From Escherichia coli (GTDB lineage Bacteria > Pseudomonadota > Gammaproteobacteria > Enterobacterales > Enterobacteriaceae): a stretch of 64,000 bases of DNA. The position numbers and the translations under genes are program-made. Of this stretch, positions 7,893 to 28,527 are shown in pieces. Numbering within the stretch: the stretch's first letter is position 1; each line of letters opens with the position of its first letter. The DNA lies in assembly GCF_041248615.1 (NCBI RefSeq), contig NZ_CP158426.1; one strand, written 5' to 3'. The notes beneath the pieces are model-generated. The model was not told the origin of the DNA and did not search any database. It was given only the letters and a program-made list of their open reading frames with translations.

Positions 7893-9716
7893 TTAATCGT
7901 CTTTCGGTGCGCGGTTGGCGCGACGACGATCGTTTTCCGTCAGGTGACGTTTACGAATACGGATAGAGGTCGGAGTCACTTCTACCAGTTCGTCATCATC
8001 GATGAACTCCAGAGCTTGTTCCAGAGTCATGCGGATAGGCGGAACCAGAACAACGGCTTCGTCAGTACCGGAAGCACGCATGTTGGTCAGTTTCTTACCG
8101 GTCAGGCAGTTTACAGTCAGGTCGTTAGAGCGGCTATGAATACCGATAATCTGACCTTCGTAAACTTCTGCACCGTGACCGAGGAACAGCTTACCGCGAT
8201 CCTGCAGACCGAACAGCGCGAACGCTACCGCTTTACCCTGACCGTTAGAGATCAGTACGCCGTTCTGACGCTGACCCACTTCACCCGGACGTACGTCGTC
8301 GTAGTGGCTGAAGGTGGAGTACAGCAGACCCGTACCAGAAGTCATGGTCATGAACTCAGAACGGAAGCCAATCAGACCACGGCTTGGGATCACGTAGTCG
8401 AGACGTACGCGGCCTTTACCGTCTGGATTCATGTTTTTCAGGTCGCCTTTACGTTCGCCCAGCGCCTGCATCACAGAACCCTGATGCTGTTCTTCAACGT
8501 CCAGCGTCACGTTTTCATACGGCTCTTGTTTACGACCGTCGATTTCACGGAAGATTACTTTCGGACGGGATACCGCCAGTTCGAAACCTTCACGACGCAT
8601 GTTTTCGATAAGAACAGACAGGTGCAGTTCGCCACGACCAGAAACGCGGAACGCATCGGCGTCTTCGGTTTCTTCTACGCGCAGCGCAACGTTGTGTACC
8701 AGTTCTTTGTTCAGACGATCCAGGATCTGACGAGACGTTACGAACTTACCTTCTTTACCGCAGAACGGCGAGGTGTTAACGCAAAAGAACATAGAAACGG
8801 TCGGCTCATCAACGGAGAGTGCCGGCAGCGCTTCAACGTTTTGCGTGTCGCAAACGGTGTCAGAAATGTTCAGTTCGCCCAGGCCCGTGATCGCCACGAT
8901 ATCGCCAGCTTCCGCCAGATCGGTTTCAATACGTTCCAGACCGAGGTGGCCCAGCACTTTACCGACTTTCGCGTTACGGGTTTTGCCTTCGCTATCGATG
9001 ATAGTGACCTGCTGGTTCGGCTTCACTTTACCGCGCTTGATGCGGCCAATGCCGATAACGCCAACATAGCTGTTGTAATCGAGCTGAGAAATCTGCATCT
9101 GGAACGGACCGTCAAGGTCAACGTCCGGCGCAGGAACGTGGTCAACAATCGCCTGATACAGCGGGGTCATGTCTTCCGCCATATCTTCGTGGTCCAGACC
9201 CGCGATACCGTTCAGCGCAGAAGCGTAAACGATCGGGAAGTCCAGCTGCTCGTCGGTCGCGTCGAGGTTAACGAACAGATCGAATACCTGATCCACAACC
9301 CAATCAGGACGCGCGCCAGGGCGGTCAACTTTGTTGATAACAACAATCGGCTTCAGGCCGTAAGCAAACGCTTTTTTGGTTACGAAGCGCGTTTGCGGCA
9401 TCGGGCCGTCAAATGCGTCAACCACCAGCAGCACTGAGTCTACCATGGACATTACACGTTCAACTTCACCACCGAAGTCGGCGTGCCCCGGGGTATCAAC
9501 GATGTTGATACGGTAATCATTCCATTTGATAGCGGTGTTTTTCGCGAGGATGGTAATCCCACGCTCTTTCTCCAAATCGTTGGAGTCCATCACGCGCTCT
9601 TGGGTTTCGGCACGAGAGTCGAACGTACCGGATTGTTGGAGCAGCTTGTCTACCAGGGTGGTTTTACCATGGTCTACGTGCGCGATGATGGCGATATTAC
9701 GCAATTTTTCGATCAC
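7893..9716 (-). CDS. typA: ribosome-associated translational GTPase BipA/TypA
   Basis: 607-aa ORF; GTPase motifs AHVDHGKTT and DTPGH; EF-G-like architecture. Confidence 0.95.
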
Positions 9717-9867
9717 AACTTTGCCTCAGGCATTAGAAATAGCGCGTTATTGTACACGGATTAATCGCACTACAAAACAGGATCACAAACATCCTCCGCA
9801 AACAAGTATTGCAGAGTCCCTTTGTGATCGCTTTCACGGAGCATAAAAAGGGTTATCCAAAGGTCAT

Positions 9868-9916
9868 TGCACCAATATGGTGCTTAATGTTTCCATTGAA
9901 GCACTATATTGGTGCA
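9868..9916. promoter_or_regulatory. NtrC (NRI) enhancer binding sites upstream of glnA
   Basis: tgcaccaatatggtgc (9868-9883) and gcactatattggtgca (9901-9916) match the TGCACC-N-GGTGCA dyad. Confidence 0.6.
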
Positions 9917-9988: not shown

Positions 9989-10005
9989 TTGGCACAGTTT
10001 TCGCT
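9989..10005 (+). promoter_or_regulatory. sigma-54 promoter glnAp2
   Basis: ttGGcacagttttcGCt: GG at 9991-9992 and GC at 10003-10004 with canonical -24/-12 spacing, about 85 bp upstream of the glnA ATG. Confidence 0.65.
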
Positions 10006-10088: not shown

Positions 10089-11498
10089 ATGTCCGCTGAA
10101 CACGTACTGACGATGCTGAACGAGCACGAAGTGAAGTTTGTTGATTTGCGCTTCACCGATACCAAAGGTAAAGAACAGCACGTCACTATCCCTGCTCATC
10201 AGGTGAATGCTGAATTCTTCGAAGAAGGCAAAATGTTTGACGGCTCCTCGATTGGCGGCTGGAAAGGCATTAACGAATCCGACATGGTGCTGATGCCAGA
10301 CGCATCCACCGCAGTGATTGACCCGTTCTTCGCCGATTCTACCCTGATTATCCGTTGCGACATCCTTGAACCTGGCACCCTGCAAGGCTATGACCGTGAC
10401 CCGCGCTCTATTGCGAAGCGCGCCGAAGATTACCTGCGTTCCACTGGCATTGCCGACACCGTACTGTTCGGGCCAGAACCTGAATTCTTCCTGTTCGATG
10501 ACATCCGTTTCGGATCTTCTATCTCCGGTTCCCACGTTGCTATCGACGATATCGAAGGCGCATGGAACTCCTCCACCCAATACGAAGGTGGTAACAAAGG
10601 TCACCGTCCGGCAGTGAAAGGCGGTTACTTCCCGGTTCCGCCGGTAGACTCTGCTCAGGATATTCGTTCTGAAATGTGTCTGGTGATGGAACAGATGGGT
10701 CTGGTGGTTGAAGCCCATCACCACGAAGTAGCGACTGCTGGTCAGAACGAAGTGGCTACCCGCTTCAATACCATGACCAAAAAAGCTGACGAAATTCAGA
10801 TCTACAAATATGTTGTGCACAACGTAGCGCACCGCTTCGGTAAAACTGCGACCTTTATGCCAAAACCGATGTTCGGTGATAACGGCTCCGGTATGCACTG
10901 CCACATGTCGCTGTCTAAAAACGGCGTCAACCTGTTCGCAGGCGACAAATACGCAGGTCTGTCTGAGCAGGCGCTGTACTATATTGGCGGCGTAATCAAA
11001 CACGCGAAAGCGATTAATGCCCTGGCAAACCCGACCACCAACTCTTACAAGCGTCTGGTCCCGGGCTACGAAGCACCGGTAATGCTGGCTTACTCTGCGC
11101 GTAACCGTTCTGCGTCTATCCGTATTCCGGTGGTTTCTTCTCCGAAAGCACGTCGTATCGAAGTACGTTTCCCGGACCCGGCGGCTAACCCGTACCTGTG
11201 CTTTGCTGCCCTGCTGATGGCCGGTCTTGACGGTATCAAGAACAAGATCCATCCGGGCGAAGCAATGGACAAAAACCTGTATGACCTGCCGCCGGAAGAA
11301 GCGAAAGAGATCCCACAGGTTGCTGGTTCTCTGGAAGAAGCACTGAACGAACTGGATCTGGACCGCGAGTTCCTGAAAGCCGGTGGCGTGTTCACGGATG
11401 AAGCGATCGATGCGTACATCGCTCTGCGTCGCGAAGAAGATGACCGCGTGCGTATGACTCCGCATCCGGTAGAGTTTGAGCTGTACTACAGCGTCTAA
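10089..11498 (+). CDS. glnA: glutamine synthetase
   Basis: 469-aa ORF starting [24 protein letters not shown]. Confidence 0.97.
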
Positions 11499-11558
11499 TA
11501 GTTGAAGTTGTACTACCCGGCGCAACAACGCCGGGATTTAGTTGCCGTGGAAACTTTC

Positions 11559-11584
11559 AGCCCATCTCTGCATGGGCTTTTTTC
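11559..11584 (+). terminator. rho-independent terminator after glnA
   Basis: hairpin agcccat...atgggct followed by a T-run (11578-11584). Confidence 0.6.
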
Positions 11585-11671
11585 TCCGTCAATTCTCTGA
11601 TGCTACGCGCTTTTTATCCGTAAAAAGCTATAATGCACTAAAATGGTGCAACCTGTTCAGGAGACTGCTTT

Positions 11672-12721
11672 ATGGCAACAGGCACGCAGCCCGATGCTGG
11701 GCAGATCCTCAACTCGCTGATTAACAGTATTTTGTTAATCGATGACAACCTGGCGATCCATTACGCCAACCCCGCCGCGCAACAACTGCTCGCCCAAAGC
11801 TCCCGCAAATTGTTTGGTACGCCGTTACCGGAACTGTTGAGCTACTTCTCATTAAATATCGAGCTGATGCAAGAAAGTCTGGAGGCGGGGCAAGGCTTTA
11901 CCGATAACGAAGTGACGCTGGTCATCGACGGGCGCTCGCATATCCTTTCTGTGACGGCCCAGCGTATGCCGGACGGCATGATCCTGCTGGAGATGGCTCC
12001 GATGGATAACCAGCGCCGCTTAAGTCAGGAACAGCTACAGCACGCCCAGCAGGTTGCTGCCCGTGATTTAGTGCGCGGCCTGGCACATGAGATTAAAAAT
12101 CCGCTTGGCGGTTTACGTGGCGCGGCGCAGCTGCTCAGCAAAGCATTACCTGACCCGTCACTACTCGAATATACCAAAGTGATTATCGAACAGGCGGACC
12201 GGCTGCGAAATCTGGTCGACCGTCTGTTGGGACCGCAACTGCCCGGTACGCGCGTTACCGAAAGTATTCATAAAGTGGCTGAACGCGTAGTGACGCTGGT
12301 GTCGATGGAACTGCCGGACAACGTGCGGTTGATTCGTGATTACGATCCCAGCCTGCCGGAACTGGCGCACGACCCGGATCAAATTGAACAGGTCTTGCTG
12401 AATATTGTGCGCAATGCGCTACAGGCGCTGGGGCCGGAAGGCGGTGAAATCATTCTGCGTACCCGCACCGCGTTTCAACTGACCTTACACGGCGAGCGCT
12501 ATCGGCTGGCGGCGCGAATTGATGTGGAAGATAACGGGCCGGGCATTCCGCCTCATTTGCAGGATACGCTGTTTTACCCGATGGTCAGTGGCCGCGAAGG
12601 TGGCACCGGGCTTGGCTTATCCATCGCCCGTAATTTGATTGATCAGCATTCAGGCAAAATTGAATTTACCAGTTGGCCTGGTCATACCGAGTTCTCGGTT
12701 TACCTGCCTATCAGGAAATAA
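11672..12721 (+). CDS. glnL: nitrogen regulation sensor histidine kinase NtrB (NRII)
   Basis: 349-aa ORF; H-box [11 protein letters not shown]. Confidence 0.93.
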
Positions 12722-25973: not shown

Positions 25974-26558
25974 GTGAATCTGATGACGACGATAACAGGC
26001 GTTGTGCTGGCGGGCGGTAAAGCCAGACGAATGGGCGGCGTAGATAAAGGATTGCTTGAATTAAACGGCAAACCATTATGGCAACATGTCGCTGACGCGC
26101 TTATGACGCAGCTTTCTCACGTCGTGGTTAATGCTAATCGTCATCAGGAAATCTATCAGGCAAGCGGTCTGAAAGTGATTGAAGATTCACTGGCGGATTA
26201 CCCAGGCCCTCTGGCAGGAATGCTTTCAGTAATGCAGCAGGAAGCTGGTGAGTGGTTTTTGTTTTGTCCGTGCGATACGCCTTACATTCCCCCTGATTTA
26301 GCCGCCCGGCTTAATCATCAGCGCAAAGATGCGCCTGTCGTGTGGGTCCATGACGGTGAACGCGATCACCCGACTATTGCTCTGGTAAACCGCGCTATTG
26401 AGCCTTTATTACTAGAATATCTGCAAGCAGGAGAACGCCGGGTAATGGCATTTATGCGTCTGGCTGGCGGGCATGCGGTTGATTTCAGCGATAATAAAGA
26501 TGCATTTATTAACGTGAATACGCCAGAGGAGCTTGCCCGATGGCAGGAAAAACGATGA
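25974..26558 (+). CDS. mobA: molybdenum cofactor guanylyltransferase MobA
   Basis: 194-aa ORF, GTG start; [14 protein letters not shown] motif. Confidence 0.9.
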
Positions 26559-27067
26559 TACCGTTACTCGCCTTTGCCGCGTGGAGTGGCACTGGAAAAA
26601 CTACGCTGCTGAAAAAACTGATCCCGGCATTATGCGCCAGAGGGATCCGTCCAGGGCTGATTAAGCATACGCACCATGATATGGATGTTGATAAACCGGG
26701 CAAAGATAGCTATGAGCTGCGCAAGGCTGGCGCGGCACAAACCATCGTTGCCAGCCAGCAGCGATGGGCCTTGATGACGGAAACACCAGACGAAGAAGAG
26801 CTGGATCTACATTTTCTCGCAAGTCGAATGGATACCTCAAAGCTGGATTTGATTCTGGTCGAAGGGTTTAAGCATGAAGAGATCGCAAAGATTGTGCTGT
26901 TTCGCGATGGAGCCGGACATCGACCTGAAGAATTAGTGATAGACAGGCATGTTATTGCTGTAGCCAGTGATGTGCCGCTTAATCTTGATGTCGCATTACT
27001 GGATATTAATGATGTTGAGGGGCTGGCTGATTTTGTGGTGGAGTGGATGCAAAAGCAGAACGGATAA
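26540..27067 (+). CDS. mobB: molybdopterin-guanine dinucleotide biosynthesis adapter MobB
   Basis: 175-aa ORF overlapping mobA by 19 nt; P-loop SGTGKTTL. Confidence 0.88.
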
Positions 27068-27095: not shown

Positions 27096-27619
27096 TGAAC
27101 TGCACCCCAAATGTTGGACATAATCTGACATCTGAAGGTGCAGTTTATGAAACATTCATTTGAAGTAAAACTTGCCGCTGTAAATCATTACCTGGCTGGT
27201 CAGGCAGGCATCATTTCTACGGCAAAACTCTTTCAACTTTCTCACACCAGCCTCTCACACTGGATTAATCTTTTTCTTCTTCACGGTCCTCGGGCACTGG
27301 ATTGCAGACACAAGCGTAGCTATTCTCCTGAAGATAAACTTTGCGTGGTTCTTTATGCTCTCGGGCATTCTGAGTCTCTACCCCGGGTAGCTGCCCGGTT
27401 TAACATTCCCAGCCACAACACGGTTAAAAACTGGATAAAAGGCTACCGCAAATCTGGTAATGAGGCCTTTATCAGGCGCAGGAAGGAGAAAAGCATGACC
27501 CGTTCTGATGATACCCATGAAAACGAGGCAAACATGACGCCGGAAGAGATGAAGAATGAGCTGCGTTATCTTCGCGCAGAAAATGCATATCTGAAAGCCA
27601 TGCAGGAGCATCTCCTGGA

Positions 27620-28527
<908 letters not shown>

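What the first reader, a model, noticed from the sequence alone, without database searches (positions are those of the whole stretch)
11499..11590. glnA 3' UTR with two hairpins: candidate 3'-UTR-derived sRNA (GlnZ-type)
Downstream of the glnA stop there is a GC-rich hairpin (cccggcg...cgccggg, 11516-11535) followed by a second hairpin with a T-run (11559-11584). This two-hairpin arrangement in a long 3' UTR is typical of processed 3'-UTR sRNAs, and a glnA-derived sRNA has been reported in enterobacteria.
Basis: partly seen in the sequence, partly recalled or inferred. Interest (0 to 1): 0.3.

Follow-up and report, generated by a model that had tools for sequence, protein, structure and literature searches.

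The report
Known GlnZ small RNA, short allele

Summary
After the glnA stop (11496-11498) there is a GC-only hairpin at 11516-11535. A second hairpin at 11559-11578 is followed by six U (11578-11583). Window 11499-11583 is identical to the glnA 3' UTR of E. coli O157:H7. That sequence is published as the 85-nt "O157-type" or "Class I" GlnZ, also called EsrF, with RACE-mapped ends and northern, Hfq and reporter data. This linker pairs in silico with the published sucA, glnP and aceE sites (-18 to -21 kcal/mol). In a scan anchored only on glnA's last codons, 82 of 118 species carry the seed, 79 of them directly before a near-invariant terminator. The stop-to-seed spacer, which holds hairpin 1, varies from 1 to 320 nt. 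Hairpin 1 recurs only in the Enterobacter cloacae complex. Among 5,426 complete E. coli genomes this short allele is the commonest (2,856), ahead of the K-12 type (1,571) and O111 type (993). Novelty: already known. Interest is low.

The parts
9869..9915 (+). Two NtrC enhancer half-palindrome sites (GCACCAATATGGTGC at 9869-9883, GCACTATATTGGTGC at 9901-9915) upstream of glnA. They are inferred to drive nitrogen-limitation induction of the parent mRNA.
   Evidence: Exact matches to GCAC-N5-TGGTGC. Their positions, about -140 and -108 from glnAp2, fit established knowledge of glnA regulation. Their function was not tested here.
9990..10005 (+). glnAp2-like sigma-54 promoter (TGGCAC-N5-TCGCT).
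   Evidence: One-mismatch match to TGGCAC-N5-TTGCW, placed 84 nt upstream of the glnA ATG. The motif alone is not significant in the window (4 matches found against 3.3 expected). The assignment rests on its position and on established knowledge.
10089..11498 (+). glnA coding sequence (469 aa glutamine synthetase), the parent mRNA from which the sRNA is released.
   Evidence: ORF list. The RefSeq annotation of the 100%-identical strain 7/2 names glnA, glnL and glnG.
11499..11583 (+). GlnZ, O157-type / Class I allele (= EsrF), the 85-nt form that spans the whole glnA 3' UTR.
   Evidence: Identical to O157:H7 in A1. The published length is 85 nt, with the 5' end at the T next to the glnA stop and the 3' end in the poly-T (PMC8092317; PMC9731577).
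11516..11535 (+). Hairpin 1 (7 G-C pairs, loop CAACAA), a lineage-specific 5' stem-loop in the variable spacer.
   Evidence: z = -4.5; P(unpaired) of the arms is 0.01 or less. A homologous hairpin occurs only in the Enterobacter cloacae complex (L011, L052, L100). It is absent from the K-12-type allele (A1).
11533..11541 (+). GGGAUUUAG motif, reported by Jia et al. to pair with the flhB 5' UTR. Its AUUUAG part also extends the pairing with aceE.
   Evidence: The motif is quoted in PMC8092317. Its complement CUAAAUCCC sits 85-93 nt upstream of the flhB start in K-12. The GGG is sequestered in hairpin 1. Pairing with aceE uses 11537-11549.
11542..11553 (+). Seed 5'-UUGCCGUGGAAA-3', the target-pairing region.
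   Evidence: Exact match to the published seed (PMC9731577). It is present with at most 1 mismatch in 82 of 118 glnA 3' regions. The aligned columns are invariant or at least 90% conserved in 77 sequences (A2). Mean P(unpaired) is 0.61. It pairs with sucA, glnP and aceE.
11559..11583 (+). Rho-independent terminator (stem 11559-11565 / 11572-11578, then six U). [quoted passage not shown]
   Evidence: In 77 sequences 98.8% of cells are paired, 4 of 8 pairs never vary and 2 pairs show compensatory changes. Hfq dependence of the identical RNA is reported in PMC8092317.
11629..11650 (+). TATAAT box (11629-11634) and overlapping NtrC operator TGCACTAAAATGGTGCA (11634-11650) of the glnL promoter. This is not part of the sRNA; it shows that the sRNA ends before the next transcription unit begins.
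   Evidence: Sequence read. The operator half-sites match. The block is at least 90% conserved in 77 species. The function is from established knowledge of glnLp.

Best explanation
[quoted passage not shown] Under nitrogen limitation, NtrC and sigma-54 induce glnA transcription, which stops at the intrinsic terminator (11559-11583). RNase E then cuts the mRNA around the stop codon and releases the 85-nt RNA, and probably also a shorter form of about 48 nt cut after hairpin 1. Hfq binds the terminator and its U-tail. The single-stranded linker 11536-11558, with the seed UUGCCGUGGAAA, base-pairs with the 5' leaders of sucA, glnP and aceE and represses them. This diverts 2-oxoglutarate from the TCA cycle toward glutamate and glutamine synthesis and lowers glutamine import.

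Shown here: the anatomy, the sequence identity to the characterised allele, the conservation of the seed and terminator, and the in-silico pairing.

Taken from the literature for the identical sequence: accumulation under low nitrogen, Hfq dependence, and repression of glnP, sucA and aceE.

Inferred: RNase E release in this allele (shown for K-12 and Salmonella), the 48-nt short form, and any role for hairpin 1.
For: - **Gene context.** The order is typA(-), glnA, glnL, glnG.
- **Identity.** The 3' UTR is identical to O157:H7 (A1).
- **Seed.** The published seed is present exactly at 11542-11553 (PMC9731577).
- **Length and ends.** They match the RACE-mapped 85-nt EsrF (PMC8092317).
- **Expression and targets of this allele.** O157 GlnZ/EsrF is induced by nitrogen limitation and represses glnP, sucA and aceE through the seed.
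- **Pairing computed here.** The window's linker pairs with the K-12 leaders: sucA -20.4, glnP -18.4 and aceE -20.8 kcal/mol. Shuffled sRNAs do as well in 8, 15 and 1 of 500 trials.
- **Conservation.** In an unbiased scan, 82 of 118 glnA 3' regions carry the seed and 79 have it directly before the terminator. The seed-plus-terminator module has 87% mean identity (A2).
- **Terminator structure.** 98.8% of cells are paired across the alignment.
- **Annotation.** MG1655 RefSeq annotates glnZ (b4836) at the same locus.
Against: - No expression data exist for this particular strain.
- P(unpaired) of the seed is only 0.61 in the 85-nt form, because weak alternative pairings with the 5' tail compete.
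- Jia et al. reported that the same RNA is a primary transcript from its own promoter, is higher in high ammonium and activates flhB. This conflicts with the processing and low-nitrogen model.
- The duplex energies are modestly, not overwhelmingly, better than those of shuffled controls for sucA and glnP.
Confidence: 0.93

Rival explanations
1. EsrF model (Jia et al. 2021). The 85-nt RNA is an independently transcribed primary sRNA with its own promoter inside the 3' end of glnA. NtrC represses it, so it is higher at high ammonium. It acts mainly through GGGAUUUAG (11533-11541), pairing with the flhB 5' UTR to relieve Rho termination and so promote motility and virulence.
For: [quoted passage not shown] The motif is present in the window. 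Its complement CUAAAUCCC lies 85-93 nt upstream of flhB, and the local duplex is -19.1 kcal/mol.
Against: Two independent groups found that the O157 RNA is induced by low, not high, nitrogen, and they explicitly disagree with Jia et al.. GlnZ production from the glnA mRNA requires RNase E in K-12 and Salmonella. The sigma-70 consensus scan found no promoter-like site on the + strand upstream of 11499. The GGG of the motif is locked in hairpin 1, with P(unpaired) 0.01. The motif lies in the non-conserved spacer, whereas the seed is invariant across the order.
Confidence: 0.1
2. Nothing but a 3' UTR. The two hairpins serve only in cis, as a transcription terminator and an mRNA-stabilising stem for glnA, with no trans-acting RNA function.
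For: Hairpin 2 is a textbook intrinsic terminator. Deleting the terminator slightly lowers GlnA in K-12 (PMC9731577). Hairpin 1 could block 3'-to-5' exonucleases.
Against: A purely structural terminator would not keep a 12-nt single-stranded sequence invariant across Enterobacteriaceae, Erwiniaceae, Yersiniaceae, Pectobacteriaceae and Hafniaceae while the neighbouring spacer varies from 1 to 320 nt. Published compensatory-mutation experiments show trans regulation by this allele.
Confidence: 0.03
3. Hairpin 1 is a remnant or target of a small mobile or repetitive element. It marks an insertion hotspot rather than a functional RNA module.
For: The other two E. coli alleles differ by insertions in this UTR. 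The 145-nt O111-type insertion starts at the 3' edge of hairpin 1 (A1; direct repeats AGGUUCAAA). The K-12 type carries a REP element. Spacer length varies from 1 to 320 nt between species.
Against: The same hairpin, with its flanks (ACCCGGCG...CGCCGGGA.UAG), is retained in the Enterobacter cloacae complex. There the loops differ and G-U changes preserve the stem, which suggests maintenance rather than decay. The junction query is single-copy in every genome, so the sequence is not repeated elsewhere.
Confidence: 0.1

Closest known systems
GlnZ, O157-type (Miyakoshi et al. 2022, eLife, PMC9731577) = Class I GlnZ (Walling et al. 2022, bioRxiv 10.1101/2022.04.01.486790)
   Same: The sequence is identical over the 85-nt 3' UTR. 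It has the same seed, the same terminator, and the same locus between glnA and glnL.
   Different: Nothing in the sRNA differs. The only difference from O157:H7 in the intergenic region is one base downstream of the terminator (A at 11605 instead of T; A1).
EsrF sRNA of EHEC O157:H7 EDL933 (Jia et al. 2021, mBio, PMC8092317)
   Same: It is the same 85-nt molecule, with its 5' end at the T after the glnA stop and its 3' end in the poly-T. It contains the GGGAUUUAG motif.
   Different: The difference is one of interpretation, not sequence. EsrF was described as a primary transcript induced by high ammonium that activates flhB. Later work describes an RNA processed from the glnA mRNA, induced by low nitrogen, that represses sucA, glnP and aceE.
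GlnZ of E. coli K-12 (glnZ, b4836, 194 nt) and the O111-type allele (230-nt UTR)
   Same: All share the seed and terminator sequences, the parent gene and the targets.
   Different: In K-12 the seed sits 10 nt after the stop codon and a REP element separates it from the terminator; hairpin 1 is absent. The O111 type is the window's allele plus a 145-nt insertion after hairpin 1 (A1). Allele counts in 5,426 genomes are 2,856 for the window type, 1,571 for the K-12 type and 993 for the O111 type.
Rfam RF02766 Ysr49 (Yersinia sRNA 49)
   Same: Ysr49 covers exactly the glnA 3' UTR of Yersinia. In L101 it starts at the first base after the stop codon and scores 151 bits. It contains the same seed and terminator, so it is the Yersinia orthologue of GlnZ.
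   Different: The window scores only 34.1 bits against a gathering score of 95. Only the last 45 nt or so align, and the upstream 80 nt of the model have no counterpart.
Other RNase E-released 3' UTR sRNAs (SroC from gltI, CpxQ from cpxP, SdhX from sdhCDAB-sucABCD)
   Same: These share the general architecture: an mRNA terminator reused as the Hfq module, a seed upstream of it, and release by RNase E.
   Different: They have different parent genes, seeds and targets. They are analogues, not homologues.

Membership tests
GlnZ (glnA 3' UTR-derived sRNA) | [quoted passage not shown] | tested here: met
   glnA is 10089-11498 and glnL is 11672-12721. RefSeq names the same genes in the identical strain 7/2.
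GlnZ (glnA 3' UTR-derived sRNA) | Conserved seed 5'-UUGCCGUGGAAA-3' | tested here: met
   Exact match at 11542-11553. The seed is defined in PMC9731577.
GlnZ (glnA 3' UTR-derived sRNA) | Conserved Rho-independent terminator (GCCCAU...AUGGGC followed by U6) at the 3' end | tested here: met
   Located at 11559-11583. It aligns to 76 other species with 98.8% of cells paired.
GlnZ (glnA 3' UTR-derived sRNA) | Seed complementarity to the validated targets sucA, glnP and aceE | tested here: met
   RNAduplex gives -20.4, -18.4 and -20.8 kcal/mol at the sites described in the papers. Shuffled sRNAs reach the observed value in 8, 15 and 1 of 500 trials. K-12 target sequences were used, not those of the window's own strain.
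GlnZ (glnA 3' UTR-derived sRNA) | A stable RNA accumulates under nitrogen limitation, depends on Hfq and is released by RNase E | not testable with these tools
   Reported for the identical O157 sequence: northern blots and low-nitrogen induction and Hfq dependence. RNase E dependence was shown for the K-12 and Salmonella alleles only.
O157-type / Class I allele of GlnZ (= EsrF) | 85-nt UTR with the seed adjacent to the terminator and no REP or 145-nt insertion | tested here: met
   Column-for-column identity with O157:H7 Z892 (A1). The junction 11518-11560 is 100% identical to O157:H7 PV15-279 and is found in 2,856 genomes.
EsrF as defined by Jia et al. | Own sigma-70 promoter inside the 3' end of glnA (primary transcript) | tested here: inconclusive
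   The consensus scan found no promoter-like site on the + strand near 11460-11499. The scan is crude, and the claim is experimental and disputed.
Rfam RF02766 Ysr49 | Covariance-model score at or above the gathering threshold (95 bits) | tested here: not met
   The window scores 34.1 bits, E = 3.4e-4, and aligns only in the seed and terminator. The Yersinia similis locus scores 151.4 bits. The window is homologous in its 3' module but is not a member by Rfam's own criterion.

The most novel reading that the evidence does not exclude
The allele-specific 5' module of this short GlnZ has a function of its own that the K-12-type allele lacks. The module is hairpin 1 plus GGGAUUUAG, 11516-11541. 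It is conserved with stem-preserving changes in the Enterobacter cloacae complex. One possible function is to position an RNase E cut at GG|AUUUAG, which would release a 48-nt GlnZ2-like form and leave glnA mRNA with a protective 3' stem. Another is to supply a second pairing surface for allele-specific targets such as flhB. Either would mean that the three-way glnZ polymorphism of E. coli (53%, 29% and 18% of genomes) has regulatory consequences.
Probability: 0.15. Interest if true: 0.3.

Novelty: already known. Interest (0 to 1): 0.08.

Why it matters
GlnZ links nitrogen status to carbon flux. When glutamine synthetase is induced, its own mRNA sheds an sRNA that throttles 2-oxoglutarate dehydrogenase, pyruvate dehydrogenase and glutamine import. 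That biology has been published since 2021-2022, including for exactly this allele, so the finding adds no new knowledge.

Three practical points come out of this check:
- The short O157-type allele, not the textbook K-12 form, is the majority allele among complete E. coli genomes.
- Genomes annotated by the PGAP pipeline carry no ncRNA feature here.
- The only Rfam model covering the locus (Ysr49) is Yersinia-specific and misses E. coli and most other Enterobacterales. A family built on the seed-plus-terminator module would annotate it across the order.

Tried and rejected
- **Rfam at permissive threshold.** No GlnZ family exists. The only relevant hit is a sub-threshold match to Ysr49. The other hits (miRNA families, rliD, anti-hemB and similar) are noise.
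- **Internal promoter for an independent transcript.** The sigma-70 scan found none on the + strand, so the primary-transcript reading is not favoured. The scan is too crude to exclude it.
- **Is a stable hairpin just upstream of the seed a general GlnZ feature?** Only partly. Of 64 loci with a spacer of at least 30 nt, 20 have z below -2 for the last 50 nt of the spacer (median z -0.83). Another 16 loci have spacers too short for any hairpin. I therefore do not claim hairpin 1 as a family feature.
- **Targets inside the window.** The only seed-complement site with at most 1 mismatch, other than the seed's own locus, is 27214-27225, inside an IS3-family transposase ORF. The chance expectation is 0.53 per window, so I treat it as chance.
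- **ORF 11542-11724 (60 aa, TTG start) across the terminator and glnL promoter.** I treated this as a mechanical artefact because it spans a terminator and a promoter. It was not tested for coding conservation.
- **Full-length GlnZ against the flhB leader.** The -48 kcal/mol duplex is an artefact of allowing both highly structured RNAs to unfold. It was not used as evidence.

Full report
**1. What is in the sequence**

The window is E. coli chromosome. typA lies on the minus strand (7893-9716). It is followed on the plus strand by glnA (10089-11498, 469 aa), glnL (11672-12721) and glnG. RefSeq gives the same gene names in strain 7/2, which is 100% identical over 11440-11700. The finding interval 11499-11590 is therefore the glnA 3' UTR plus a few bases beyond it.

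- **Hairpin 1** is CCCGGCG/CAACAA/CGCCGGG at 11516-11535. It has seven G-C pairs and folds at -14.9 kcal/mol (z = -4.5; 0 of 200 dinucleotide shuffles fold as well).
- **Hairpin 2** is AGCCCAU/CUCUGC/AUGGGCU at 11559-11578, running into UUUUUU at 11578-11583. It folds at -10.1 kcal/mol (z = -3.1).

Hairpin 2 is a canonical intrinsic terminator. Hairpin 1 is not, because no U-run follows it.

**2. What it is**

Over the whole 3' UTR the window is identical, column for column, to E. coli O157:H7 (A1; 100% across 11518-11560). Three papers in the library describe exactly this RNA.
- Jia et al. 2021 (PMC8092317) mapped it by 5'/3' RACE in EDL933. It is an 85-nt, Hfq-dependent RNA, named EsrF, that starts at the T adjacent to the glnA stop and ends in the terminator poly-T. 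In the window that corresponds to 11499-11583.
- Miyakoshi et al. 2022 (PMC9731577) classify E. coli glnA 3' UTRs into K-12 type (197 nt), O157 type (85 nt) and O111 type (230 nt). They detected the O157 RNA and its processed species by northern blot under nitrogen limitation. They define the seed as 5'-UUGCCGUGGAAA-3'.
- Walling et al. 2022 (bioRxiv 10.1101/2022.04.01.486790) call it Class I GlnZ. They show that it is induced by nitrogen deprivation and that it represses glnP, sucA and aceE through the seed, including with compensatory mutants for glnP.

The seed is present exactly at 11542-11553, in the linker between the two hairpins. The curated MG1655 record annotates glnZ (b4836) at the equivalent K-12 locus.

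**3. Independent checks made here**

*(a) Allele frequencies.* Junction-specific megablast queries found the window's allele in 2,856 of 5,426 complete E. coli genomes, the K-12 type in 1,571 and the O111 type in 993. That accounts for 5,420 genomes. The window carries the majority allele.

*(b) Conservation.* I scanned one genome per GTDB species with a degenerate DNA pattern for the last 11 codons of glnA ([11 protein letters not shown]).
- Of 118 loci with enough downstream sequence, 82 carry the seed with at most 1 mismatch within 450 nt of the stop.
- 79 of these have the seed directly before the terminator.
- 3 have the K-12 geometry: E. albertii, a Citrobacter and S. enterica arizonae.
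- Most of the 36 loci without the seed are outside Enterobacterales (Cellvibrio, Vibrio, Aeromonas, Marinobacter and others). The few Enterobacterales among them include insect symbionts, Rosenbergiella and one Enterobacter isolate.
- The aligned seed-plus-terminator module (A2, 77 sequences) has 87% mean identity and 24 invariant columns.
- The terminator stem is paired in 98.8% of cells. Four of its 8 pairs never vary and two show compensatory changes.
- The spacer between the stop codon and the seed varies from 1 to 320 nt.
- Hairpin 1 lies in that spacer. A clearly homologous hairpin (ACCCGGCG...CGCCGGGA.UAG, with different loops and G-U changes that keep the stem) is seen only in the Enterobacter cloacae complex.
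- A significantly stable hairpin just upstream of the seed is present in only 20 of 64 loci with a spacer of at least 30 nt.

The feature that carries the conservation signal is the seed.

*(c) Target pairing.* The linker 11536-11558 pairs with the K-12 leaders at the positions the papers describe.

| Target leader | Duplex energy (kcal/mol) | Position | Shuffled sRNAs as good (of 500) |
|---|---|---|---|
| sdhB-sucA | -20.4 | not assessed | 8 |
| glnP | -18.4 | ends 10 nt before the start codon, just upstream of the SD | 15 |
| pdhR-aceE | -20.8 | about 90-105 nt upstream of the start codon | 1 |

The aceE duplex uses UUUAG upstream of the seed. That is consistent with the published effect of the U41G change.

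*(d) Accessibility.* In the 85-nt form the hairpin arms are essentially always paired (P(unpaired) 0.05 or less). The seed is mostly open (0.61) and the U-tail is free (1.00).

*(e) Parent promoter.* A sigma-54-type element (9990-10005) and two NtrC sites (9869-9883, 9901-9915) lie upstream of glnA. An NtrC operator overlaps the glnL -10 box (11629-11650). This is the classical glnALG arrangement. The motifs alone are not statistically significant in 64 kb, so their assignment rests on position and established knowledge.

**4. Mechanism**

The best-supported account is as follows. NtrC and sigma-54 induce glnA under nitrogen limitation. Transcription terminates at 11583. RNase E releases the 3' UTR. 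Hfq binds the terminator and its U-tail. The seed then represses sucA, glnP and aceE.

For this allele, induction, Hfq dependence and target repression are published. RNase E dependence is published for the K-12 and Salmonella alleles and is inferred here.

Salmonella makes a GlnZ2 of about 50 nt that suffices for sucA repression. The O157 northern blot showed 'processed species'. I therefore infer that a cut in the AU-rich stretch right after hairpin 1 (GG|AUUUAG, 11535/11536) would give a 48-nt form with the seed near its 5' end. This is not shown.

**5. Rival explanations**

*The EsrF reading.* This holds that the RNA is a primary transcript, induced by high ammonium, that activates flhB through GGGAUUUAG.
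- In its favour, the motif is present at 11533-11541 and its complement lies 85-93 nt upstream of flhB.
- Against it, two later studies contradict the expression pattern.
- My promoter scan finds no sigma-70-like site upstream of 11499.
- The GGG of the motif is locked in hairpin 1.

*A purely cis-acting 3' UTR.* This is incompatible with a 12-nt single-stranded sequence staying invariant across five families while the flanking spacer varies freely.

*Hairpin 1 as an insertion-hotspot remnant.* This remains possible, because the O111-type insertion starts at the 3' edge of hairpin 1 (A1). Its retention in Enterobacter argues for some constraint.

**6. Comparison with known families**

By every testable feature the window is a member of GlnZ, specifically the O157-type / Class I allele, which is the same molecule as EsrF.

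It is not a member of Rfam RF02766 (Ysr49) by Rfam's threshold: it scores 34 bits against a gathering score of 95. Ysr49 is nevertheless the Yersinia orthologue. In Yersinia similis the model starts at the first base after the glnA stop and scores 151 bits.

**7. Verdict**

The element is already known and experimentally characterised, so interest is low. The only open points are minor: the role, if any, of hairpin 1, and the disputed flhB activity.

Noticed in passing
window 9798-9905 (- strand): Rfam ES222 sRNA (RF02755) matches at 133 bits against a gathering score of 62, over the full length of the model. It lies in the typA-glnA intergenic region on the typA strand, so it looks like a typA 5' leader or sRNA. 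It overlaps the two NtrC enhancer sites of glnA (9869-9883, 9901-9915).
   Followed up: no
L101 5303-5426 (Yersinia similis); window 11479-11583: Rfam Ysr49 (RF02766) is the Yersinia glnA 3' UTR and starts at the first base after the stop codon. It is therefore GlnZ under another name. The model is too Yersinia-specific to detect E. coli GlnZ (34 bits), and PGAP-annotated E. coli genomes carry no ncRNA feature here.
   Followed up: partly
window 11584-11587 (and 11660-11664): The four bases CUCC immediately after the terminator U-run are mostly at least 90% conserved (one column at least 70%) across 77 Enterobacterales, although they lie beyond the sRNA 3' end. UCUCC (11583-11587) is complementary to the glnL Shine-Dalgarno GGAGA (11660-11664). 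This raises the untested idea of SD occlusion in read-through glnALG transcripts. Both blocks are near-invariant, so covariation cannot test it.
   Followed up: no
window 11565-11572: In most Enterobacterales the terminator is GCCCAUC-UYCG-GAUGGGC, a C(UUCG)G-type tetraloop hairpin. E. coli alleles have G changed to C at the closing position (11571), which gives a 6-nt loop CUCUGC and one fewer pair (A2).
   Followed up: partly
window 11499-11583, compared with 5,426 E. coli genomes: The glnZ locus is trimorphic in E. coli. The short O157 type is in 2,856 genomes, the K-12 type (REP-containing) in 1,571 and the O111 type (145-nt insertion) in 993. Together these are 5,420 of 5,426, and the laboratory K-12 form is a minority allele.
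   Followed up: yes
window 27138-27668 (+), site 27214-27225: An IS3-family transposase orfA-like ORF follows mobB (26540-27067). It contains the only other near-complement to the GlnZ seed in the window (UUUCUACGGCAA, where the single mismatch would be a G-U pair). The chance expectation is 0.53 per window, so this is probably fortuitous.
   Followed up: partly
window 11605: There is a single-base difference, A here against T in K-12, O157:H7 Z892 and ESBL15, between the terminator and the glnL promoter. It is shared with strain 7/2 (A1).
   Followed up: no
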